Source: an uncultured Candidatus Peribacteria bacterium
Lineage (GTDB): Bacteria; Patescibacteriota; Gracilibacteria; Absconditabacterales; Absconditicoccaceae
Reading direction: 5' to 3'
Assembly (NCBI GenBank): GCA_964547365.1
Contig: CAZJMP010000001.1
Coordinates: 1 to 60,728 of the forward strand
Length of the DNA: 60,728 nucleotides
The notes beneath the pieces were generated by a model. It saw only the letters and a program-made list of their open reading frames with translations, was not told where the DNA came from and ran no database searches. This document shows, one piece after another, positions 1 through 57,940 of the stretch. Made by a program: the position numbers and the translations under genes. Within the stretch, counting starts at the first letter, position 1. The number at the start of each line of letters is the position of its first letter.

Positions 1-194
1 CCGGATGCTGTACTCTGGATAGATACTTTATATATGAATTATCTACGCCTCGCCTACATCCCCCGGTAATTACCGGGGGGCCCATTCCGGACTCGTCCAT
101 GCAAGCAGCTTCATCTTCTTTTTGATTCCTATCTCGTGGCGAGCATCCGGCGTTGTAGTATAGTTGATCTAATTACTGGCGAAAGTTTTTTTTT
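1..194. repeat. Structured repeat family, copy A (left part cut by window edge)
   Basis: Closing stem ccggatgct(1-9)/agcatccgg(142-150); internal GC hairpin at 60-80; 3' block ctatctcgtggcgagcatccggcg, then ggcgaaagt and a T-run. Same layout as copy B (6449-6668), with compensatory stem substitutions. Confidence 0.5.
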
Positions 195-232: not shown

Positions 233-243
233 CTGACTGTGAT

Positions 244-360
244 ACTATCCAGAGTGGACGATAGAGACTAGGCTCGTTAAGCGTCCCGGCAACCTTCCAG
301 AGGCAGGTAAACTTCCATTGGGAACGGTGCCAATTCCTACCCTCACGGGAAAGATATGAG
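244..360 (+). promoter_or_regulatory. SAM-I (S-box) riboswitch aptamer
   Basis: S-box core blocks in the canonical order: tatccAGAGtgg, CCCGGCAACC (285-294), GGTGCCAATTCC (326-337), P4 hairpin ccctcacggg, closing GAAAGATAtGAG. Lies directly 5' of metK. Confidence 0.75.
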
Positions 361-432: not shown

Positions 433-1557
433 ATGAAACAATTCATTACCAGTGAATCCGTTACCGAGTGACATCCTGACAAAATCTGCGATCAGGTGTC
501 TGATGCTATTTTGGACGCTTGTCTGCACCAAGATCCTTTATCTCGTGTCGCTTGTGAATGTCTTACAACGACCGATACTATCATTGTTGCTGGGGAAATT
601 ACCACGCATGCCGATATCGATATCGAAGCTATCGTAAGAAAGACTATCTGCGATATCTGATATGATAGCGATGAAAAATATTTCGATGGTGAGACGTGCA
701 AGGTTCAGATACTCATTCATAAACAATCTCCGAATATCGCTCAAGGTGTCGATACGTGATGAGCAGGTGATCAGTGAATGATGTATGGGTATGCAAGCAA
801 TGAAACTAAAAATTATATGCCTATGCCGATCGATTTGGCACATGCCTTATCTAGAAGACTTGCTCATGTGAGAAAAGCATGAATCTTACATCGAATCTAT
901 CCTGATGGCAAGACACAAGTGACCGTGGAATATTATGGCCACAAGCCGTTGAGAGTCGATGCTGTCGTTGTTTCTGCACAGCATGCCAAAGATATCTCCA
1001 ACGAGCAGATCAAAAAAGATATTATCGAACAGGTCATCACACCTGTCATAGGTGAGTATATTGATGATCAAACTAAGATTTTTATTAATCCTACCTGAGC
1101 ATTCAATATCGGTGGTCCGGCTGGTGATACGTGAGTGACGTGAAGAAAGATTATCGTCGATACTTATGGTGGAGTTTGAAGGCATTGATGATGATGCTTC
1201 AGTGGAAAAGATCCGACCAAAGTCGATAGAAGCGGTGCATATATGATGCGTTATCTTGCCAAAAATGTCGTCGCTGCATGATTGTGCGACAAATGTGAAC
1301 TTCAGGTTTCCTATGCGATAGGTGTGAAACAGCCGTTGAATATCTATATCGATTGTTTCGGTACGGAAAAAGTCGATCTTCAAACGATTATTGATACGAT
1401 AAGAAATCATTTTGATCTGAGTCCAAAATGAATCATCGAAAGGTTATGATTGAGAACACCGATATTCAAATCAACTTCTGCGTACGGCCATTTCGGCAGG
1501 CATGAATTCCCTTGGGAACAGCTTGATAGCGTGGAGATTTTCAAAAAACTTATATAA
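433..1557 (+). CDS. metK: S-adenosylmethionine synthetase (table 25, about 15 in-frame TGA=Gly)
   Basis: [12 protein letters not shown][TGA=G][22 protein letters not shown][V][13 protein letters not shown]-terminal YGHFGR..FPWE. Triple TGA at 1186-1194 reads HGGGC. Ends in TAA. Confidence 0.95.
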
Positions 1558-5784: not shown

Positions 5785-6222
5785 ATGGAAAACTTAAACA
5801 CAAGACTTTCACAAGAATCAATCCGCAATGTCAATTCGCTTATCCAAAAGATCGAAGGCGTATGCAAGGATATCGAAAAGAATCTTGCTATGTGTCTTGA
5901 GATTAGCGGAGATTCTGTAGCAAAATTCAGCGTCACTACTGCAAACAAGGTAGAATCTGAATTTGTGGATAGAGTAATCCTCAATATCGATAAGATCAAA
6001 AATCATCTCAAAGATCTCAAAAAAGCATTGAATAAAAAAGTTATTACGGATACTACCGATATCGAAAAAATCATCGGTTCACTCCAAGATACGTCTGATA
6101 CATTACAATCATTCTTGCTTTCCAACGGTTTCTTCCAGAATACCTTCCAGATGCCAGTCATGGAAATCCAAGGAGCTATCGATCAAATCCTCAATCATGT
6201 TACTTTGGTCGAGGCATACTAA
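5785..6222 (+). CDS. Hypothetical protein (145 aa, helical)
   Basis: Uninterrupted ORF ending in TAA, with a promoter upstream and terminators downstream. Confidence 0.6.
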   Translation: MENLNTRLSQESIRNVNSLIQKIEGVCKDIEKNLAMCLEISGDSVAKFSVTTANKVESEFVDRVILNIDKIKNHLKDLKKALNKKVITDTTDIEKIIGSLQDTSDTLQSFLLSNGFFQNTFQMPVMEIQGAIDQILNHVTLVEAY

Positions 6223-6339
6223 CAATGTACACCGACGGTGTCGGTATCCTTTCGATATCGTGAAAATCCTCATAAAAAATCTTCGGATTTTCATCGCATC
6301 TCAAGTAAGCGGTCTTTACAAATATATATAATGAAAAAC

Positions 6340-6378
6340 TCCCGCGGTATATCCGTCGGGATTTTTTTATTTTTTTTG
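6340..6378 (+). terminator. Intrinsic terminator
   Basis: tcccgcgg..ccgtcggga hairpin plus a long T-run. Confidence 0.6.
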
Positions 6379-6385
6379 ATGCTTC

Positions 6386-6690
6386 GCTGAATTACTTTTG
6401 AGGTGTTATTCTTAGACTTACTTTTGGGCGCTTCGCCCCAAACCCCGATTTACTTTTTGCCATTGCTGCAAAAAGTAAACAAAAAGATCTAGCCAGATGC
6501 AAAGCTCAGAATTTTATTTCCTTCTTTACGTTGCCTACCAACGAGCCTCCTCCCCATCTACGATGGGACCCAGTCGGCTCGTTCCATTTCTCTTTTTCGA
6601 TTTAACATTGTTCACTATCCCGCGGCGTGCATCTGGCGGATGTTATTTTAGTAATGGCGAAAAGTAAAAAAAGCGGAGTGGTTCCGCTTA
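6386..6690. repeat. Structured repeat family, copy B (complete), with flanking TTACTTTTG motifs
   Basis: Outer 16-bp stem tttactttttgccatt(6449-6464)/aatggcgaaaagtaaa(6653-6668). Inner stem gccagatgca(6492-6501)/tgcatctggc(6628-6637). Nested stems aacgagcc/ggctcgtt and cccatc/gatggg. ttacttttg occurs three times on the 5' side. Hairpin agcgga/tccgct at 6672-6688. Confidence 0.55.
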
Positions 6691-6868: not shown

Positions 6869-7306
6869 TTATAATTTTTTAATACATCATTTTGTGAGTT
6901 CTTCTTCTGCCTTTTTAATGGCATTCATCACGTAAAGAGCAGATGCTAGGTCCTCATTGATTTCCTTGAAGTTACCAATATCATAGTTATAGCTTGCACT
7001 ATGATGGCTAGTAGCCCATTCCCTGGAAAAAATTATGTCTAAGTAGGTATAATCAGAACCATACTTTTCCGCTCTCTCAGCAATAGAAAAGAACGGGTGG
7101 AACCCGTTTTCATCAACATTGAATACCATAATCTTATTTGTTTCGAACAAACCAACGCCAATACTTGGAATACCCTGTTGTACGAGTTCAGGGACTACCA
7201 ATTCTGCGGTTTTATACCCGTGGATGTCGATAAAAGTTGAAGAACTCTTCGTTAAATTCTCAAATGCTCCTTTGAGAATTTGTTTTACTAATTCCTGATT
7301 TCTCAT
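6869..7306 (-). CDS. Hypothetical protein (145 aa)
   Basis: Track ORF 6887..7306 ends in TGA. Under table 25 it continues six more codons (G plus CIKKL) to TAA at 6869. Confidence 0.6.
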
Positions 7307-7494: not shown

Positions 7495-10488
7495 TTACTT
7501 TTGTGCTCGTACTACTTTCTGTTCGCCATTGATCTCCTTGAATTCTTTGGCTTTTACCTTGATCTTGTCGCCGATGTTGTAGTATTTTTTTCGTTCAACT
7601 CCGGCTGGAGCGACGATGAAATTCTTGTGGAGCAATCCTTCGACTCCTTTGACCGTAACGAACATTCCATAGTTGTACATCAGCTTGATGTATCCATCAT
7701 ATTCCTTTCCGATCCTGATATCTTTGATGCTGAAAGTGCCGTTGTCGTGGATTATCTCTCCTTCGTATGCAGGTGTTTTGATAATAGGTTCCGCTGCTGT
7801 TGCTGTCGGTGCAGCTGCTGGAGCGATGCCTTTTATTTTTTCTAGTTTCGCGATGTTCGGACAGAATTTGAAATAATCCTGTTTTTTTGCTCCTGCTTGT
7901 TTGTAGATATCATTCAATTGTTCGAGGGCGCGTTCTTTCTTTCCTATCCGGATCATCAATGGTCCGCCATTGTTTTCTATCTGTATGGTTTGGTGCTGAT
8001 AGATATCTACATGGACAGGTATCTCTGTCTCTTTTCCGAAACTTACTTTACCGCCGATCTCGTATTTGAGATTTGCTTGATCTTCTAATCATTTTGGTTT
8101 GCCATACCGGATCGCTTTGTGTGAATAGTACTCGGTATCGAAGATAATCGCATCTGGTTCTTCGCCGTCGATAGCGAATTCCGTGAAGTATGACGCGTGT
8201 TGTTCGACAAACATATCATGTAAATTTTCTACTTCTTCTTCTGTTATTCATAATGATTCCAATCTTGCTTTCTCCATGACTTTTTCTTGGACGGAGAATG
8301 TCTTGTTTGATCGCGCTGCCATAAGTTTTTCGAGCTGTCCTCTTTCCATTGCATATCTTTGTCTTGATTGTTTCCTTACTTTATCGATCAATTCCAATGA
8401 TCCTTCTCCAAGTTTTATCGGAGGCAATGTTTTCATCGAAAATGGATCTGATGAAATACCGTCGATCATCAGTCTGGTATAGGTCGTATATTTCGGCAAA
8501 GAAATCAGATCATTGACACTTGCCATTTCTTTGAATTGTCCCGTGATGATATCTGCATCATCTTTTCCTAAGGTAAATGCAACTGTTGTACCTACATTTC
8601 CAAAGATGGCATCTTTTGTCTTTTCATCGAGCTGTGCAGTATATTGGTTGGCGACGATAAGTGCTAACTTATATTTTCTCGCTTCTGAAAGGATAGTCGC
8701 GAATGATTCTGACGCGAAATTCTGGAACTCATCGATGTAGAGATAGAACGGTCTTCTTTCATGCGCTGCGATATTCGCTCTGGACATGGCATCGATCTGG
8801 AATTTCGTTACGAGCAATGATCCGATCATATTTGCATTATCTTCTCCGATCTTTCCTTTTGAGAGATTGACGAGCAGGATTTTTCCTTCATCCATCGCAT
8901 TTCTCAGATTGAGTTTTGTTCTTGGCTGACCAAAAATATTTCTGACCAATTTGGACGAAAGGAATTGTCCGACCTTGTTGGTGATAGGACCGATCGCTTC
9001 TTCCCTCTGTTTTGGCTGCCATTTATTGAATTCGCCTGTTCGGAATTTCAGGACGACTGGATCCTTGATATATGACATCACTTCCGTGCGGAAGTTATCA
9101 TCAATAAGCATTCTCAAAATATGCATGAGTGTCGCGTTCGGATAATCTACTAGCGAAAGCGCTACATTTCTCAATATGTATTCCAATCTTGGTCACCAGC
9201 TATCGCCGAAGAGTTTCTTGAATGTGGAAACAACACCTGATGCGATCAGGTTCTTTTCTTCTTCGGTCGCTCCTTGTAGCAGATTGAATCCGATAGGGTA
9301 GTCCGTATCTCCTACGTCGAATAGGATGACATCATTGATTCTATGTGTCGGAATATGTTCCAATATATTGTCTACAAGTTCACCATGCGGATCGAGCAAT
9401 GCGAGTCCATTTCCAGCTGCCATATCGCTTTTGAGAAGGTTCTCTATGAACGTAGATTTACCGGTACCGGTTTTTCCTACGATATACATATGTCTGAATT
9501 TATCTTCTTCCTTGATTCAAAATGTTATTTTTTCTCCTCTATAATCGGTGTATCCGAGTACCGTCAATTTTTTTGGATCGGTATTTTTTGTCGTAGGCAT
9601 GTTGGTAGGATATGCTAGCTTCCTGTAAAGGGTGTATTCTAATCCTTTGACGAAATTTTCCATCGTCGGGATGTGAAAGAAATTCACCGCTTGGGAATGC
9701 ATCATGCCGTGAAATTTTTCAGATGTCTTTATTTTTATTTTTCCGTTGGAGCTGAATGGAGCGAATGCTGCTACGATATTTTTTTTGAGATTCTCTCTGG
9801 CGTATTGATCTTTGGTCATGATCTTGTAACTGAATGATCCGTAGATTTCTGGCTTTTCTTCCTTGGGTTTTTCTATCGGCGTTCCGTCAGGATTTTTCTT
9901 TTTTGGTTCTCGGATCCGTTTGAAAATAGCATTCATATGTTGCAGAAAATTCTTCTCCAATTTGAACGTATAGGTAAAATAGATATCGAGCCTGGAATTT
10001 TGATCGACCATATTGTAGAGAGAAAAAATACCGTTCATAGGATCCATGTAGGTACCGCCTCTAGTGAATTCCTCTTTGGTAAGTAAGGTCCCTTCTTTGT
10101 CGAATTGCAATCGTTCTTTTCTTTGCGCTATCGGAAACGGTTCTTTCATCTCCTGGATATCTGAAGTAGGGAAACTCGTGTAGAACGTATTCTCGAAATA
10201 GGTTTTGAAATCTCTTGGTACTCCTACATAGAGTTTGATATCTATCGCATTTCCGCTGATGATGAACTTGATGTGTTTTTTCTTGAGGCTGATGATATTT
10301 TTGCTTATAGTATCTCGATGGTTTACTCCATGATCGTTGTCCTTGAATGGTTTAATATGAAAAAAAACATAGCCCTTGCTTTGTTCTTCGGAAATTTGCG
10401 TTCCTGGTATTTTTTGGGTGATGTTTCTTGGTTTGGTTGTGGTCGCTCAGGCAAGCATTTTGCCTAGTTTCTCTGCGTGTTTTAACAT
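7495..10488 (-). CDS. VirD4/TraD-like (T4SS coupling protein-type) P-loop ATPase with a C-terminal S1 RNA/ssDNA-binding domain (997 aa)
   Basis: Four track ORFs (9517..10149, 9193..9489, 8248..9186, 7495..7959) plus 10150..10488 share one frame joined by TGA codons. Walker A GKTGTGKST, LLDPHGEL, Walker B YIDEFQNF, ARKYKLALIVANQ. C-terminal S1 fold GKEYDGYI..YGMFVTVKGVEGLLHKN..IGDKIKVK. Confidence 0.8.
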
Positions 10489-13911: not shown

Positions 13912-15048
13912 ATGACAGAAACAGAAGAACAGAAAACACAAGAGTATAAACCGGGTCCGATCGATGGTATGATCGTATCTACATTGCAATCCATGGACAG
14001 AGGAAGTTTTTGAACCAAGGATAAGATTCTCTTTTTCAAGGAATTGGCATATCTCTTGAACGGAGGAGTCTCTTTAGTAGATAGTATGAATATCATCGGT
14101 GAAAGTTCAGATAACTATGCACTCAAAGAAATCTCCAGAAATATCTTGGCATTTTTGCGCAAAGGTAAAAGCTTTTCATATGCGCTCAATAGACTGCCTG
14201 ATTATTTCGATCAGGGCGATTACACCATCGTCAAGGCAGGAGAGATGTCCGGTAATCTGCCTATGATCCTGCAATCATTATCCAATGAATATGTGTATAT
14301 CAAAGAGATGAAAAATAAATATATTTGAGCATTGATGTATCCTATGATTCTTGTCGTCATTTCTATCGTAGCGGTATTCGCCTTGTTCTTGTTGGTTTTG
14401 CCTGGTATTTTCTCTATAGCGACAAGTTTCCAGAATCTCGAATTGCCATGGATTACCAGAGCTTTACATGATACTTCGGTCTTTTTCCAAACACAACGGA
14501 AACTCATGCTTGGAATTATCGCTGGATTATGACTTGTCGGTGGCGTATTCTTCTCTACTGATCTCGGAAAGAAAACTCGGTTCAGTATCTTGCTCTGAAT
14601 CCCGTTGATTGGTAAGATGACAAAATATTTCTATCTCGTAAAATTCTGCAGATATACCAAACTGATGATGGCTGCCGGCATGAATTATCTCCAGACTTTT
14701 AGTTTGCTTAGGGATATCCTCGGCATCTCTGCGTATCAGAATATGATCGAACGTGTCGTCACGGGATTGAACAAATGAGAAACCATCTATTCTACTTTAC
14801 AATATGAAACAGATCTGATTCCTTCCGATGTAGCTGTGATGATCAAGGTCGGCGAGGAAACGGCGAATCTTTCCAACTCTTTGGATAATGTCCTCAAGAT
14901 GTATGAGGAGGATCTCAATGTCCTGATCGGTCGTTCGTCCAAAATCATTGAGCCAGTTATGTTGGTCGGTGTCTGAGGCGTGATTCTTGTCATCGCATTA
15001 GGAATCTTTGGATTGATTTTGCAGATCATGGAAGGTGCAGGATTATAA
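13912..15048 (+). CDS. pilC: Type IV pilus/T2SS platform protein (GspF/PilC family)
   Basis: Two GspF repeats: FFKELAYLLNGGVSL.DSM, GD.TIVKAGEMSGNL, IEPVMLVG[V]GGVILVIAL. Track ORFs 14044.. and 14332.. are in frame. Confidence 0.9.
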
Positions 15049-15051
15049 AAT

Positions 15052-15170
15052 GAATTCAGAATGCAGAATTCAAAATTTAGAATGTAGAATTCAGAATTTA
15101 GAATGTAGAATTTAGAATGTAGAATGTAGAATTCAGAATTTAGAATTTAGAATGTAAAATTCAGAAATAG
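15052..15170. repeat. 17-unit tandem heptamer array GAAT[T/G][T/C]A
   Basis: gaattca gaatgca gaattca aaattta gaatgta gaattca gaattta gaatgta gaattta gaatgta gaatgta gaattca gaattta gaattta gaatgta aaattca gaaatag. Begins 3 nt after the pilC stop. Confidence 0.95.
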
Positions 15171-15171
15171 A

Positions 15172-15198
15172 AAAACTGTCGGTGAAGACAGTTTTTTC
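15172..15198 (+). terminator. Intrinsic terminator after pilC and the repeat array
   Basis: actgtc-ggtgaa-gacagt hairpin plus a T-run. Confidence 0.7.
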
Positions 15199-15255
15199 GT
15201 TGAAAGCGAAAGTATAATGATTACATATGCATAGTGATTTATATTCGTTTATACT

Positions 15256-15750
15256 ATGAGAAAAGCATTTACGCTTATAGAGATAGTCATCGTATTGTTG
15301 GTGATCGGCATATTGATGGGAGCGACCATGAGGTTCTGATCCAATCGTATCACGGATCTCAAGGCACAGACGATCAAAGAGCAATTCGTCGGGCGATATA
15401 ACGATCTCTATAGTCAGAATATGACCTCGAGTTTCCACAATGGACAGAAATATGAAAAGATGACCGTCGTTCTTGGACAGCCATTCTTTTATCTTTTGGA
15501 TGCGGCATCATTCACTGACTCGATTATCACGTGATATCAGCTGACCAAGTTCCGTTTCCAGCCTGAAGGAACAACTTTTACCACCGCCAATCTTGTGTTT
15601 GCTCCGTATAAGCTCTGATGCAATATCTTAGATAACGACAATCCATGAGATCGTCTTTATTTCGATTTTATCGTTCCTGAGAACGGCAAAAAATATTGTT
15701 TTGAAATTCCTTCAGAAACCTGTAAATTAATCGAAAATCGTTGTGATTAA
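15256..15750 (+). CDS. Prepilin-type (pseudo)pilin 1
   Basis: N-terminal MRKAFTLIEIVIVLLVIGIL, the prepilin cleavage/methylation motif. Confidence 0.8.
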
Positions 15751-15778
15751 TTGAAAAATTTAGTTTATGAATCCATAT

Positions 15779-16420
15779 ATGAAAAAGAAATCTGCATTTA
15801 CGTTTATAGAAGTGATCATTGCGATCTCTGTTTTTGCTGTAGGCGTGCTTGCGGTTTTGCGTCTCATCACCCAGAATCTTGTGACTTTGGATATCACGGA
15901 AGCGCGTACGACCTCCACATTCCTCGCAAAGGAATGAATAGAGCTTGTCTACAATATGAGAGATTCCAATATCCAAAAATCTTTGCCGCGGGATTGTGTC
16001 ATGTATACTGAACTTGAAACGTGAGATTGGAATGAAATAGATCCTGAACATATTTGCATGCGGTATTTTGCTTCATGAACCGAAGATAAGCAAATGCTGC
16101 AAATCTCTTTTGCACCTGAAGGATATAGCTATACCCATATTGTCGAACAATGAACATGATTCGAATCATTACGGAACGATAATAGGTTGTATTATACCAC
16201 CTGATCGATTGCAAATAAGGATTTGTTCCGATATTCCAATCTTCCTGTAGAAGGGCAGGAACCTACGACATTTGCTAGATATATTGTCTTTGATGTCGTT
16301 CGTGAATGAGACAAGATATTGCCGCCAAATAAAATCCTCAAAATAGAATCCCATGTTGCATACATGAAGGGAACAAAAACCGGTGAAATAGTCCTGGAAA
16401 GTTTTATTTGAAAATATTAG
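15779..16420 (+). CDS. Prepilin-type (pseudo)pilin 2
   Basis: MKKKSAFTFIEVIIAISVFAVGVLA. Many TGA=Gly codons. Ends in TAG. Confidence 0.75.
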
Positions 16421-16423
16421 TGC

Positions 16424-17053
16424 ATGAAAAGGAAGTGAATGACTTTGCTTGAACTCGTAATCGTGATGGCTATTCTCGGTATCCTTTTTGTATTGCTGTT
16501 GAGGACGTACAATCGGATTTCTACCATGGTGTTTCGTGTTCAACAAGAAAAGGAAGTCGCTCAGGAAATATTGCAGATATCTCAGACGGTCCAAAATCTC
16601 GCTGATAGAAATGCTATCGATTACACCAAATATTCAGGAGTAGGAAATACGTGAGAAGAAATGAGTTTAGTTTCTACTGACGGAATCACTTCTGTTCTCT
16701 ATCTCAGCGGATTGGATGGCCAAGTGACATTGTACACCACAGGCGATTGTCTTAGTCCTAGTATAGAATATGCGTTTACCGGTGCTTGATCATGATGCTC
16801 GTTGTTTGTTGATGTCTGAGGCAAAACCAGAGAACTCATCAATTCCAAGAAAGTGCTCATCAGCGAAGTCGTTTTCAAGATCATCCCTTACGCTTCTGAA
16901 CAGCAATATATAGATACAGACAATCTTTGTGCAGGAAATTATCTCCAGTGTCTCAATAGCCCATGATTCCGGATGATATTCACTGCGTATAGCGTCAATT
17001 ATTGAACTCAGCGAGCCACTCATGTGCGTGTGCCGTTCCAACAATTTTTTTAA
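16424..17053 (+). CDS. Prepilin-type (pseudo)pilin 3
   Basis: MKRK[G]MTLLELVIVMAILGIL. In frame with track ORF 16439..16654. Confidence 0.75.
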
Positions 17054-24280: not shown

Positions 24281-24613
24281 TTATTTCTTGATCTTGACTG
24301 CAGCTCGTCCAACCAATTTCTTAGCAGGTTTTTTAGCAGCAGGTTTTTTTGCCTTCTTAACTTTTTTAGGAGCTTTTTTCTTGGCAACCTTCTTAACTTT
24401 TTTAGGAGCTTTTTTCTTAGCAACCTTCTTAGCTGGTTTCTTAGCAGCTTTCTTAGCTGGTTTTTTAGCAGCTTTTTTAGCAACTTTCTTTACAGCTTTT
24501 TTAGCAGGTTTCTTAGCAACCTTTTTAGCAGCTTTTTTAGCTGGTTTCTTAGCAACTTTTTTAGCAACTTTCTTTACAGCTTTTTTTGCAGCTGGTTTTT
24601 TCTTTGCAACCAT
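24281..24613 (-). CDS. Histone H1-like Lys/Ala-rich nucleoid protein (110 aa)
   Basis: MVAKKKPAAKKAVKKVAKKVAKKPAKKAAKK... AKKP/AKKV repeats. The start is set at the internal Met of track ORF 24281..24685. Confidence 0.7.
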   Translation of the reverse strand: MVAKKKPAAKKAVKKVAKKVAKKPAKKAAKKVAKKPAKKAVKKVAKKAAKKPAKKAAKKPAKKVAKKKAPKKVKKVAKKKAPKKVKKAKKPAAKKPAKKLVGRAAVKIKK

Positions 24614-24823
24614 TGTGAGTAGATAATAAGAGAATAAAAAAGAGATATAACACATCAGATATATGCTATTTAGTAGTAATTGCAAGAGAAAATGAATGAG
24701 AAGAAAATTTTTTTTTGTAATGTGTATCTATTGCAATCACTCTTTTTACCTAGTATTTCCTTGCTCTTATTTTTTTGCAAAAAAACCTTTTCAAAAAAAA
24801 TAAAAAAATAAAAAATTTTTTTT

Positions 24824-42327: not shown

Positions 42328-42399
42328 GGTCCGGTCGTTTAGTGGATAGGACACAACCCTGCGAAGGTTGTAACCCCGGTTCGACTCCGGGTCGGGCCG
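42328..42399 (+). tRNA. tRNA-Arg (anticodon GCG)
   Basis: Hand-folded cloverleaf: acceptor GGTCCGG/TCGGGCC, anticodon arm CAACC-CTGCGAA-GGTTG, T arm CCCGG-TTCGACT-CCGGG. Confidence 0.8.
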
Positions 42400-42492: not shown

Positions 42493-42569
42493 GGGTGATT
42501 AGCTCAGTTGGCTAGAGCGTTTGCTTGACGTGCAAAAGGTCACAGGTTCGACTCCTGTATCACCCACCA
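42493..42569 (+). tRNA. tRNA-Val (anticodon GAC), CCA encoded
   Basis: GGGTGAT/ATCACCC acceptor, TTTGC-TTGACGT-GCAAA anticodon arm, ACAGG-TTCGACT-CCTGT T arm, ACCA 3' end. Confidence 0.9.
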
Positions 42570-45041: not shown

Positions 45042-45123
45042 TGCCGTCGGGGGGACTCGAACCCCCAAGTCTTGCGACATACGTACCTGAAACGTACGTG
45101 TATACCAATTCCACCACGACGGC
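45042..45123 (-). tRNA. tRNA-Leu (anticodon CAG), class II long variable arm, no encoded CCA
   Basis: GCCGTCG-TG-GTGGAATTGGTATACAC-G-TACGT-TTCAGGT-ACGTA-TGTCGCAAGACTT-GGGGG-TTCGAGT-CCCCC-CGACGGC-A. Collinear with E. coli tRNA-Leu(CAG). Confidence 0.9.
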
Positions 45124-57853: not shown

Positions 57854-57940
57854 TGGTACCCAGAGGGGGACTTGAACCCCCACGACCTTACGGTCACCAG
57901 ATTTTGAGTCTAGCATGTCTACCAATTCCATCATCTGGGC
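57854..57940 (-). tRNA. tRNA-Leu (anticodon CAA), CCA encoded
   Basis: GCCCAGA-TG-ATGGAATTGGTAGACAT-G-CTAGA-CTCAAAA-TCTGG-TGACCGTAAGGTCGT-GGGGG-TTCAAGT-CCCCC-TCTGGGT-ACCA. Confidence 0.9.

What the first reader, a model, noticed from the sequence alone, without database searches (positions are those of the whole stretch)
1..194. Two copies of a ~170-nt structured element with compensatory stem changes (candidate ncRNA family or MITE)
Copy A (1-194, truncated by the window edge) and copy B (6449-6668) share a layout. It consists of a closing stem, a variable arm ending in a GC hairpin, a conserved block ctatc[t/c]cg[t/c]ggcg[a/t]gcatc[c/t]ggcg, then [t/a]a[t]ggcgaaa(a)gt. The closing stems differ by a paired substitution: ccgGatgc/gcatCcgg versus ccaGatgc-type gccAgatgca/tgcatcTggc. 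The internal hairpins have different sequences at the same position (cccccggta/taccggggg versus cccatc/gatggg). Copy B is further enclosed by a 16-bp outer stem (6449-6464 with 6653-6668), and the motif TTACTTTTG occurs three times on its 5' side, which is reminiscent of terminal inverted repeats. Structure is conserved more than sequence, which favours a functional RNA (or a structured DNA element). I could not match it to tmRNA, RNase P, SRP or 6S signature motifs.
Basis: seen in the sequence. Interest (0 to 1): 0.7.

Follow-up and report, generated by a model that had tools for sequence, protein, structure and literature searches.

The report
New structured RNA-like element family
The two look-alike stretches are real members of a previously uncatalogued family of folded, non-coding intergenic elements found only in a group of tiny uncultured bacteria that read the stop codon TGA as glycine; they look like small RNA genes, probably read from the opposite strand to the one first assumed, and their job is unknown.

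Summary
Copies A (1-166, cut by the window edge) and B (core 6487-6653) are weakly alike in sequence (48%). Both belong to a family of at least 24 distinct copies recovered from Absconditabacterales-type genomes and metagenomes that all use TGA as a sense codon.

The copies share four structural features:
- a 10-bp closing stem;
- a helix with an invariant 2x2 internal loop;
- a hairpin whose sequence changes while pairing is kept (17 different arms in 24 copies);
- an AT-rich hairpin outside the core (18 different arms in 19 copies).

No Rfam 15 family, tRNA or tmRNA matches. There is no conserved ORF, and no transposase, reverse transcriptase or Cas gene lies nearby. No terminal inverted repeats were seen; target duplications could not be tested. 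The family was not found in IMG/VR.

The 16-bp outer stem of copy B is peculiar to this window. The three TTACTTTTG motifs are partial tandem duplications of a flanking module.

Wobble statistics, folding energies and tandem G·A motifs favour the minus strand. The same flanking module is joined to other, unrelated cores elsewhere. Close relatives lack both copies.

Best reading: a lineage-specific family of small structured RNA genes, possibly dispersed by an unknown mobility mechanism. Function unknown.

The parts
1..166 (-). Copy A core (A-type), cut at its module end by the window edge. The linker, AT-rich hairpin and GC hairpin seen in A-type homologues would lie off the window.
   Evidence: Covariance model R1: 139 bits, model positions 7-170, flagged as cut at the 5' end. 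It is 76-78% identical to A-type copies L068, L074, L075 and L080. The strand is assigned from wobble, energy and G·A evidence and is not proven.
1..9 (-). Copy A closing stem, one strand (CCGGATGCT). It pairs with 142-150.
   Evidence: Sequence. Pair counts across the family.
142..150 (-). Copy A closing stem, other strand (AGCATCCGG), inside the conserved block 129-152.
60..79 (-). Copy A variable hairpin P4 (CCCCCGGT / ACCGGGGG).
   Evidence: The same position holds 17 different arm sequences in 24 copies: 150 Watson-Crick pairs, 7 A·C, 1 G·U.
47..97 (-). Copy A helix P3. It reads GCC-TC-GCC ... GG(A)C-TC-G on the + strand, which is a helix with a tandem GA/GA loop on the - strand. It encloses P4.
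   Evidence: Alignment A2; pair counts. P3 pairs less well in the A-type copies than in the B-type.
6381..6448 (-). Partial tandem repeats of the flanking module: a GCTTCGC motif plus the TTACTTTTG half-arm (6381-6400, 6412-6427), and a small GC hairpin GGGCGCTTCGCCC followed by AAACCCC.
   Evidence: The same arrangement occurs in L146 and L012. GGGGC...GCCCCAAACCCC also precedes A-type copies.
6449..6480 (-). AT-rich module hairpin of copy B: arms 6449-6460 and 6469-6480 (12 perfect pairs), with the 8-nt loop CATTGCTG between them.
   Evidence: In 19 family copies there are 18 different arms. Own-arm pairing is 96.5%, against 68.5% when arms of different copies are paired.
6481..6491 (-). A-rich linker ending in CTAG (CAAAAAGATCTAG). 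In many copies it can pair with sequence just beyond the tail (helix P0).
   Evidence: Alignments. P0 appears in the L142 fold. Linker type and tail co-vary in several copies but not in all (reading).
6487..6653 (-). Copy B core (B-type).
   Evidence: R1: 135.7 bits, full length.
6492..6501 (-). Copy B closing stem, one strand (GCCAGATGCA). It pairs with 6629-6638.
6629..6638 (-). Copy B closing stem, other strand (TGCATCTGGC), inside the conserved block 6615-6638.
6540..6583 (-). Copy B helix P3 (AACGAGCC 6540-6547 with GGCTCGTT 6576-6583). Here it is fully Watson-Crick, where most other copies have the 2x2 loop. It encloses P4 (6553-6558 with 6562-6567).
6639..6653 (-). Semi-conserved tail (consensus GTTGTAATATAGTT in + orientation).
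   Evidence: Alignments. The tail is also present in the divergent C- and F-type elements.
6653..6668 (.). It is probably flank, not part of the element.
   Evidence: Absent from L146 and L004. A similar ACTGGCGAAAAG plus A-run plus terminator is present in L151, which lacks the element.

Best explanation
Copies A and B are two diverged paralogues (A-type and B-type) of a lineage-specific family of independent, non-coding, structured elements. The family is found in Absconditabacterales-like bacteria that use TGA as a sense codon. They are most likely small RNA genes of about 230-320 nt.

Each unit has a core of about 170 nt:
- a 10-bp closing stem;
- conserved single-stranded blocks;
- helix P3 with an invariant 2x2 internal loop;
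- a variable hairpin P4.

Outside the core lie a U/A-rich linker, an AT-rich hairpin and a short GC-rich motif (CGCTCCGCTGGGG in + orientation).

I infer that the RNA is made from the window's minus strand. On that strand the invariant loops become tandem sheared G·A pairs flanking a 3-bp helix. This is a typical protein-binding or tertiary-contact motif, so the RNA probably works as a folded scaffold, likely bound by a protein, rather than as a simple antisense regulator.

The flanking module is a shared 'handle'. In related genomes it is attached to other, unrelated cores.

Shown: the family, the covarying helices, the non-coding nature, the intergenic and independent placement, and the restriction to this lineage within the searches made.

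Inferred: transcription, the strand, protein binding and action in trans.
For: Family:
- Pattern scans recovered 7 low-GC genome loci and 19 metagenome loci, giving 24 distinct cores.
- Model R1 scores them at 92-181 bits and also finds two divergent copies.

Structure:
- 94.0% of cells are paired, against 87.3% in shuffles (0 of 500 shuffles reach the observed value).
- 29 cells have changes on both sides, against 7.8 in shuffles.
- When the 3' partners are slid by 1-3 columns, only 22-37% pair.
- P3 shows GCC/GGC, ACC/GGT, GAC/GTC, GTC/GAC and ATC/GAT.
- P4 has 17 different arms in 24 copies, with 150 Watson-Crick pairs.
- The AT hairpin has 18 different arms in 19 copies. Its own arms pair at 96.5%, against 68.5% across copies.

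Strand:
- All 21 full copies fold more stably as the reverse complement (mean -64.4 against -56.3 kcal/mol, Wilcoxon p = 6e-5).
- In + orientation, A·C cells outnumber G·U 11 to 2 in the modelled pairs and 7 to 1 in P4.
- The alifold energy is -53.1 for the reverse complement against -49.2, and only the reverse complement recovers P3.
- For L142 the z-score is -3.2 for the reverse complement against -0.8.

Not coding:
- The open frames differ between copies, and copy lengths differ by 1-2 nt.

Independent unit:
- The neighbours are unrelated housekeeping genes in every orientation.

Not a known family.
Against: - There are no expression data.
- No consistent promoter or intrinsic terminator lies on either side. 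Only 3-6 of 24 copies have a canonical terminator within 160-200 nt in any of the four positions.
- L004 looks like a + strand gene: a TATAAT lies upstream and a strong terminator follows just after the tail. L075 looks like a - strand gene.
- In the window and in L004 a terminator lies 17-28 nt upstream of the core in the minus orientation, leaving little room for a promoter.
- A few pairs favour the + strand: the UUCG loop of P4 in L142, a U·G in the L038 hairpin, and G·U in L075 P4.
- The closest relatives (L001-L003, L151) lack both copies at the syntenic sites. L146 carries a copy disrupted by inserted palindromes. So individual copies are dispensable.
Confidence: 0.5

Rival explanations
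1. It is a dispersed, non-autonomous mobile or recombining repeat. Candidates are MITE-like elements, palindrome-associated elements of the IS200/IS605 kind, or REP/BIME-like modular repeats. Its hairpins would be recognised as single-stranded DNA by an enzyme encoded elsewhere. Any RNA structure would be secondary, or would serve the element, for example as a guide-RNA scaffold.
For: - Presence and absence differ between close relatives.
- Window B and L146 B carry nearly the same 5' module but sit in different gene contexts.
- The build is modular, with one module joined to different cores: C-type in L147, L130 and L138; E-type in L009, L010 and L011; F-type in L009; short forms in L007.
- The module shows partial tandem duplications.
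- Small GC palindromes are inserted into some elements.
- Elements cluster in one variable region of otherwise conserved synteny.
Against: - I saw no terminal inverted repeats at the unit's boundaries (reading of the alignments). Target-site duplications could not be tested, because no filled/empty pair has alignable flanks on both sides.
- Copies within a genome are old paralogues (48% identical), while orthologous types are 65-78% identical across genomes.
- Only two copies occur in 60 kb.
- The site downstream of the 146-aa gene is occupied in the window, in L004, in L007 and, as a remnant, in L151. That fits vertical descent with decay rather than insertion.
- No transposase, integrase or reverse-transcriptase domain appears in the precomputed Pfam lists of the flanking 10 kb or among ten tested neighbours.
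- The complex core, with invariant loops under purifying selection, is more than a transposase-binding hairpin needs.
Confidence: 0.22
2. It is a cis-acting part of neighbouring mRNAs. On the minus strand it would be a structured 3' untranslated region that ends or stabilises the upstream transcript, or from which a small RNA is cut.
For: - In minus orientation, 15 of 22 copies lie downstream of a co-directional gene. The gap is sometimes only 3-27 nt after the stop codon (L080, L133, L012), which leaves no room for a separate promoter.
- On that strand the closing stem is followed by a U-rich tract (UAGAGUUUUUU or UUGAUCUUUUU).
- Most copies have no canonical terminator of their own.
Against: - The upstream genes are unrelated to one another.
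- Seven of 22 copies are divergent from the gene on that side. Copy A would point away from metK, and copy B follows a terminator.
- A closing stem that encloses about 140 nt, followed by a 5-nt spacer, is not a normal intrinsic terminator.
- The 15 of 22 bias is weak.
Confidence: 0.13
3. It is a DNA-level site, such as a recombination, replication-priming or DNA-uptake site. It would be read as double-stranded palindromes or as folded single-stranded DNA, with no RNA product.
For: - The module hairpin has 11-14-bp inverted arms around a 6-8-nt spacer of conserved sequence (CATTGMC). That is the geometry of tyrosine-recombinase core sites.
- The organisms carry type IV pilus/competence-type genes and DUF87/TraG-like ATPases next to the elements.
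Against: - Several copies carry a 20-45-nt GC hairpin inserted into the spacer or arm (L130, L131, L139, L140, L143, L074). That would destroy a recombinase site but preserves or lengthens a folded hairpin.
- The arms differ between copies of one genome.
- The wobble asymmetry and tandem G·A motifs are typical of RNA.
Confidence: 0.07
4. It is a chance resemblance of two GC-richer intergenic stretches and has no function.
For: The pairwise similarity between A and B alone is barely above background.
Against: There are 24 homologues with covariation and covariance-model E-values of 1e-18 to 1e-37.
Confidence: 0.01

Closest known systems
Orphan structured bacterial RNA motifs found by comparative genomics (for example raiA, OLE, HEARO, GOLLD/ROOL-type candidates in Rfam)
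   Same: - An intergenic, non-coding element of about 170-300 nt.
- Several helices supported by compensatory changes, with conserved unpaired blocks.
- Restricted to one lineage.
- No fixed neighbouring gene.
   Different: - No sequence or structure match to any of the 4227 Rfam 15 models, even at E = 10.
- Several diverged paralogue types occur per genome.
- A shared flanking module is reused with different cores.
Paralogous small-RNA gene families (for example 6S-1/6S-2 in Bacillus, Qrr1-5 in Vibrio); comparison from my own knowledge
   Same: - Two or more diverged copies per genome.
- Each type is conserved across related genomes.
- The loci stand alone.
   Different: - Not a 6S-like rod with a central bubble.
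- Larger and more branched than base-pairing small RNAs.
- Promoters and terminators are not evident.
Modular dispersed repeats (REP/BIME, BOX, Correia/NEMIS, Rickettsia palindromic elements) and MITEs; comparison from my own knowledge
   Same: - A modular build from a few reusable pieces.
- Hairpin-forming and intergenic.
- Present or absent between close relatives.
- Partial tandem duplications.
   Different: - Low copy number in the 60-kb window.
- Copies are strongly diverged within a genome.
- No terminal inverted repeats seen.
- The large core has invariant internal loops and covariation maintained across genera.
Guide-RNA scaffolds of transposon-encoded nucleases and recombinases (omega RNA of TnpB/IscB, IS110 bridge RNA); comparison from my own knowledge
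   Same: - A structured RNA of about 150-300 nt with a hairpin near one end.
- Can occur as stand-alone copies.
- Associated with mobile DNA.
   Different: - No TnpB, IscB or IS110 gene next to any copy.
- The variable segments are base-paired (structural) rather than free guide segments.
- The HEARO model does not match.

Membership tests
MITE (miniature inverted-repeat transposable element) | Terminal inverted repeats at the extreme ends of the unit | tested here: not met
   The conserved unit runs from the AAACGCTYCGCT motif to the ...TATAGTT tail, and these ends are not complementary (alignments). The 16-bp 'outer stem' of copy B is absent from homologues L146 and L004.
MITE (miniature inverted-repeat transposable element) | Target-site duplication flanking the unit; precise filled and empty sites | tested here: inconclusive
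   I did not notice direct repeats at the boundaries when reading the flanks, but no systematic test was run. The relatives that lack the element (L001, L151) differ by replacement or decay of the whole region, so no precise empty site could be aligned.
MITE (miniature inverted-repeat transposable element) | Many near-identical copies within a genome | tested here: not met
   Two copies in 60 kb, 48% identical. Whole-genome copy number could not be counted.
Known Rfam families (including tmRNA, RNase P, SRP, 6S, HEARO, riboswitches, ribozymes) | Match to the family covariance model at or near its gathering score | tested here: not met
   No hit over the elements at the gathering thresholds or at E <= 10. 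ARAGORN finds no tRNA or tmRNA there.
Housekeeping RNA (RNase P, tmRNA, SRP RNA) | Normally a single, indispensable copy per genome | tested here: not met
   Two paralogues in the window. Both are absent from the syntenic sites in the closest relatives. One disrupted copy occurs in L146.
Cis-regulatory leader / riboswitch | Fixed position and orientation upstream of a functionally related gene set | tested here: not met
   The neighbours are unrelated and occur in all orientations. Copy A lies upstream of an independent SAM riboswitch (242-360), which is present without copy A in L001, L004 and L151.
IS200/IS605-derived palindrome-associated element or omega-RNA locus | Subterminal hairpins at both ends, and a TnpA/TnpB-type gene in the genome or next to some copies | tested here: inconclusive
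   A hairpin is conserved at one end only. The sequence blocks beyond the tail do not form a consistent hairpin. No such gene is seen within 10 kb of the annotated loci. Whole genomes were not available.
Retron non-coding RNA | Adjacent reverse-transcriptase gene; flanking a1/a2 repeats with the branching G inside | tested here: not met
   No RVT domain appears in the flanking genes.
Protein-coding small ORF | A frame that stays open, with indels in multiples of three | tested here: not met
   The open frames differ from copy to copy. Five copies have none. Core lengths of 166-173 nt differ by 1-2 nt.
Structured non-coding RNA (generic) | Helices supported by compensatory changes beyond the controls | tested here: met
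   (see the full report).
Structured non-coding RNA (generic) | Evidence of a discrete transcript | not testable with these tools
   No expression data are available. Promoter and terminator scans were uninformative.

The most novel reading that the evidence does not exclude
The family is a new class of protein-binding (or catalytic) RNA specific to TGA-recoded candidate-phyla-radiation bacteria. It would be built on a reusable 'handle' (GC motif, AT-rich hairpin and U/A-rich linker) that a dedicated, still unknown protein recognises. Several different structured cores (types A, B, C, E, F) would be plugged into that handle. In other words, this would be a modular RNA-protein system without a described counterpart.
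Probability: 0.15. Interest if true: 0.85.

Novelty: new variant of a known kind. Interest (0 to 1): 0.62.

Why it matters
Absconditabacteria and their relatives are uncultured or barely cultured. They have genomes of about 1 Mb, live as episymbionts or predators, and use a changed genetic code. As far as my searches found, almost nothing is known about their non-coding RNAs.

A conserved, multi-paralogue structured element that survives in such reduced genomes points to a function worth finding. It could be an RNA-protein particle, a regulator, or a new kind of selfish element.

The covariance model and alignment made here give a direct handle for three uses: annotating these genomes, mining metatranscriptomes, and looking for a partner protein by co-occurrence.

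The case also shows that a pair of sequences with almost no detectable similarity can be linked through shared architecture.

Tried and rejected
- **Rfam and ARAGORN.** Rfam at gathering and at E <= 10 on the window and 27 loci, plus ARAGORN, found nothing over the elements.
- **Protein coding.** Rejected.
- **Outer stem and TTACTTTTG repeats as inverted terminal repeats.** Rejected.
- **Phage origin.** Three IMG/VR scans gave only two chance hits in high-GC contigs.
- **First genome-wide pattern.** It was too GC-rich.
- **Window's own contig.** Fetching it to recover the missing end of copy A failed; the protein is not on record.
- **Extra structure.** I looked for a pseudoknot (CCAC with GUGG) and for pairing of the tail with the AU-rich region. 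The partners are invariant or inconsistent, so there is no support.
- **Variable region.** A consistent hairpin between P3 and the conserved 3' block was not found. Different copies form different local hairpins.
- **Motif checks by eye.** Hammerhead, kink-turn/box C/D, T-box, tRNA-like, sigma-54 promoter and CsrA-site readings did not fit.
- **Strand by transcription signals.** Inconclusive.
- **Literature.** Three full-text searches found no description of such an RNA in these bacteria.
Full report
**Setting**

The window has 38% G+C. Its genes are open only if TGA is read as a sense codon. For example, metK (433-1557) reads through many TGA codons at positions where I recalled MetK proteins having glycine; I did not align it.

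A neighbouring 145-aa protein (5785-6222) has homologues named Candidatus Absconditabacterales or candidate division SR1. So the source is a genetic-code-25 bacterium of that lineage.

Copy A (1-194) lies just upstream of a SAM riboswitch (242-360) that precedes metK. Copy B lies between two features. On one side is the terminator of gene 5785-6222 (6336-6370). On the other is a minus-strand terminator (6689-6671) that follows gene 6869-7306.

As a pair, however, the two copies are hardly similar:
- blastn does not report them.
- Their local alignment is only marginally the best in the window.
- In the family alignment they are 48% identical.
- Rfam finds nothing there, even at E = 10.

So the claim could only be settled with outside sequences.

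**Homologues**

Orthologous loci were fetched through the neighbouring protein. Synteny is conserved: DUF8128 ATPase, metK, folD, HI0933-like gene, CorA, the 146-aa gene, then a DUF87/TraG-like ATPase.
- The closest relatives (L001-L003 and L151, 92% protein identity) lack both copies.
- A more distant relative (L004-L006, 84%) has a copy-B orthologue but no copy A.

I then ran a two-block pattern taken from the three copies (closing-stem half, a gap of 107-137 nt, then the conserved 3' block).
- In species-representative genomes it found 7 low-GC loci, all labelled Absconditabacterales or 'Peribacteria'.
- A stricter version found 19 loci in JGI metagenomes.
- After removing duplicates there are 24 distinct cores.
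- In all nine element-bearing loci I tested, the longest ORF contains 5-23 in-frame TGA codons.
- Nothing was found in IMG/VR viral contigs.

The unit reads, in order:
1. A T-rich run, then the motif AAACGCTYCGCTRGGG. In A-type and some B-type copies this is replaced or followed by a small GC hairpin plus AAACCCC.
2. An AT-rich hairpin of 11-14 bp, such as TTACTTTTTGG/CCAAAAAGTAA, with a loop near CATTGMC.
3. An A-rich linker ending in TCWAG.
4. The 10-bp closing stem GCCRGATGCW/WGCATCYGGC.
5. The conserved blocks ACTCAG, AATATTTCA and CTACC.
6. Helix P3: AAC-TC-GCC paired with GGC-TC-GTT.
7. The variable hairpin P4, followed by GTCCCAC.
8. A variable stretch of about 30 nt.
9. The block CTATCTCGTGGCG.
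10. The second strand of the closing stem.
11. The tail GTTGTAATATAGTT.

There are two core subtypes:
- **A-type:** CCGGATGC ... GGCGAGCATCCGG. Members are window A, L068, L074, L075 and L080.
- **B-type:** CCAGATGC ... GGCGTGCATCTGG. Members are window B and 18 others.

Window A is 76-78% identical to the other A-type copies, and window B is 51-71% identical to the other B-type copies (lowest for the outlier L004), though each is only 48% identical to the other. They are therefore old paralogues, each conserved across genomes.

**Structure support**

I counted pairs on the 24-sequence alignment for the closing stem, P3 and the base of P4:
- 94.0% of cells are standard pairs, against 87.3% in shuffles. 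None of 500 shuffles reached the observed value.
- 29 cells have changes on both sides, against 7.8 in shuffles.
- The covariation score is 0.190, against 0.074.
- Sliding the 3' partner by 1-3 columns drops pairing to 22-37%.

The shuffle control does not correct for relatedness, so I rely mainly on the slid controls and on the variety of pair types.

Helix by helix:
- **P3** shows GCC/GGC, ACC/GGT, GAC/GTC, GTC/GAC and ATC/GAT.
- **P4** has 17 different 5' arms in 24 copies, with 150 Watson-Crick pairs out of 159.
- **The AT-rich hairpin** has 18 different arms in 19 copies. Its own arms pair at 96.5%, against 68.5% when arms from different copies are combined. In the four base-proximal pairs the figures are 96% against 44%.
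- In six copies a GC-rich hairpin of 20-45 nt is inserted into this hairpin and lengthens it. That argues for a folded strand rather than a double-stranded protein site.

A covariance model of the core (R1) scores all members at 92-181 bits, with window A at 139 and window B at 136. It finds no further copy in the window or in L001-L011.

No frame stays open across copies, and lengths differ by 1-2 nt, so the core is not coding.

The 16-bp outer stem of copy B is real in this sequence and dominates its predicted fold (z = -6.5). Three points count against it as a feature of the element:
- Its 5' half is simply one arm of the conserved AT-rich hairpin (6449-6460 with 6469-6480).
- Its 3' half is missing in L146, which has an almost identical 5' module, and in L004.
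- Its 3' half resembles flank that persists in L151 without the element.

The three TTACTTTTG motifs are partial tandem copies of 'motif plus 5' arm'. The same is seen in L146 (three units) and L012 (two units).

**Which strand?**

Several independent measures favour the reverse complement, that is, the window's minus strand.
- **Energy.** All 21 full-length copies fold more stably as the reverse complement, with means of -64.4 and -56.3 kcal/mol. For L142 the z-scores are -3.2 and -0.8.
- **Wobble pairs.** In the modelled pairs, A·C/C·A cells (which are G·U on the other strand) outnumber G·U by 11 to 2. In P4 the ratio is 7 to 1.
- **Consensus fold.** The alifold energy is -53.1 for the reverse complement against -49.2, and only the reverse complement recovers P3.
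- **Internal loops.** The nearly invariant TC/TC loop inside P3, and a second one between P3 and P4, read as 5'-GA-3'/5'-GA-3' on the minus strand. From general RNA structural knowledge, tandem sheared G·A pairs are a common stable motif and UC/UC is not. Window B replaces the first loop with Watson-Crick GA/TC.

Some evidence points the other way:
- a UUCG loop in the P4 hairpin of L142;
- a few G·U pairs on the + strand;
- L004, where a TATAAT lies before the motif and a strong terminator follows just after the tail.

Promoter and terminator scans do not decide the question. I put the minus strand at roughly 70%.

**A wider, modular family**

The motif-hairpin-linker module is also joined to other cores:
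- **C-type.** Found in L147 at 1196-1365 (25.6 bits) and, as its 5' end and module, in L130 and L138, arranged head-to-head with a B-type copy. Its closing stem is entirely different (CGATTGT/ACAATCG), but it has the same P3/P4 layout and tail.
- **E-type.** Found in L009, L010 and L011. Its stem GGAAAAATGA/TCATTTTTCC shows compensatory changes.
- **F-type.** Found in L009. Its closing stem is GCGCCATTT/AAATGGCGC and it has the same tail.
- **Short forms.** Found in L007.
- **A disrupted A-type copy.** Found in L146. It is interrupted by small GC palindromes (CCTGCCTGCGGNAGGCAGG), one of them inside the closing stem.

These elements cluster in the same variable stretch of otherwise conserved synteny. 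The site downstream of the 146-aa gene carries a B-type copy in the window and in L004, a short form in L007, and a remnant in L151. That fits vertical descent with decay rather than repeated insertion.

**Context**

- Neighbours are unrelated: a metallo-beta-lactamase-fold protein, a PLD-like protein, a TrmB regulator, a pseudouridine synthase, RecA, alanine racemase and others by Pfam, plus tRNA synthetases and Clp ATPases recognised by eye.
- Neighbours occur in every orientation relative to the element.
- No transposase, integrase, reverse-transcriptase or Cas domain was found.
- In minus orientation, 15 of 22 copies follow a co-directional gene, in three cases within 3-27 nt of its stop codon. 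This keeps a 3'-UTR reading alive.

**Conclusion**

The finding is real and more interesting than a pair of repeats. It is a lineage-restricted, modular family of structured non-coding elements with no counterpart in Rfam 15.

My ranking of the explanations:
- Stand-alone structured small RNA genes, probably on the minus strand and probably protein-bound: about 0.5.
- A mobile or recombining structured repeat: about 0.2.
- A cis-acting 3'-UTR element: about 0.13.
- A DNA-level site: about 0.07.

The MITE reading in its specific form (terminal inverted repeats, recent copies; target duplications could not be tested) is not supported. What the RNA does remains unknown. Expression data and a genome-wide census are the decisive missing pieces.

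Noticed in passing
window 433-1557 and most other genes: TGA is a sense codon. metK is one 374-aa ORF only if TGA is translated, and the TGA codons fall where I recalled MetK having glycine (not aligned). This fits genetic code 25 of Absconditabacteria/Gracilibacteria. ORF lists made with table 11 are therefore fragmented and misleading for this window.
   Followed up: yes
window 242-360 (+): A SAM-I riboswitch (RF00162, 44.5 bits, just at the gathering score) lies upstream of metK. It is also present in relatives L001 and L004 by Rfam (L151 by eye), all of which lack copy A.
   Followed up: partly
L146 5100-5080 and 5005-4985 (-); L010 17487-17510; L011 14405-14425: A small GC-rich palindrome (CCTGCCTGCGGNAGGCAGG) recurs in several genomes. 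In L146 it has inserted into an A-type element, once inside its closing stem. It looks like a separate miniature insertion sequence or REP-like repeat.
   Followed up: no
window 6829-6665 (-): A promoter-like site (TTGAGA, 16 nt, TATGAT; 10 of 12 matches) at 6829-6802 and an intrinsic terminator at 6689-6671 lie on the minus strand. Together they delimit a possible transcript of about 130 nt directly upstream of copy B, separate from gene 6869-7306.
   Followed up: no
L130 6860-6910, L138 290-340, L147 1134-1185, L133 2683-2740, L011 14470-14525: A second module variant occurs: an AT-rich hairpin next to GCCCAGCCGGCGAGGCGATAG. It turned out to be the flanking module of C-type and E-type elements. 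In L130, L138 and L147 a C-type and a B-type element sit head-to-head, with only about 25-30 AT-rich bases between their modules.
   Followed up: partly
L009 2984-3140, L010 17374-17560, L011 14478-14660: E-type elements consist of the same module followed by CTAG, a 10-bp hairpin with compensatory changes (loop TCCGCCATT), then ACTAGACAATCAGRG. In L010 and L011 they sit in the divergent region next to the DUF87/TraG-like ATPase gene.
   Followed up: partly
window 7495-10488 (-), and the DUF8128 orthologue just off the window start: Two large DUF87/TraG/TrwB-like ATPase genes bracket the metK-folD-CorA block in all relatives. Type IV pilus / T2SS-F and pseudopilin-like genes follow at 13912-17053.
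   Followed up: no
window 24281-24655 (-): An ORF encodes a lysine/alanine-rich repeat protein (…AKKKPAAKKAVKKVAKKVAKKPAKKAAKK…), histone H1-like in composition.
   Followed up: no
window 42328-42399, 42493-42566 (+); 45042-45123, 57857-57940 (-): Four tRNA genes were found by Rfam. Their anticodons were not examined, so whether one is the UGA-reading tRNA-Gly was not checked.
   Followed up: no
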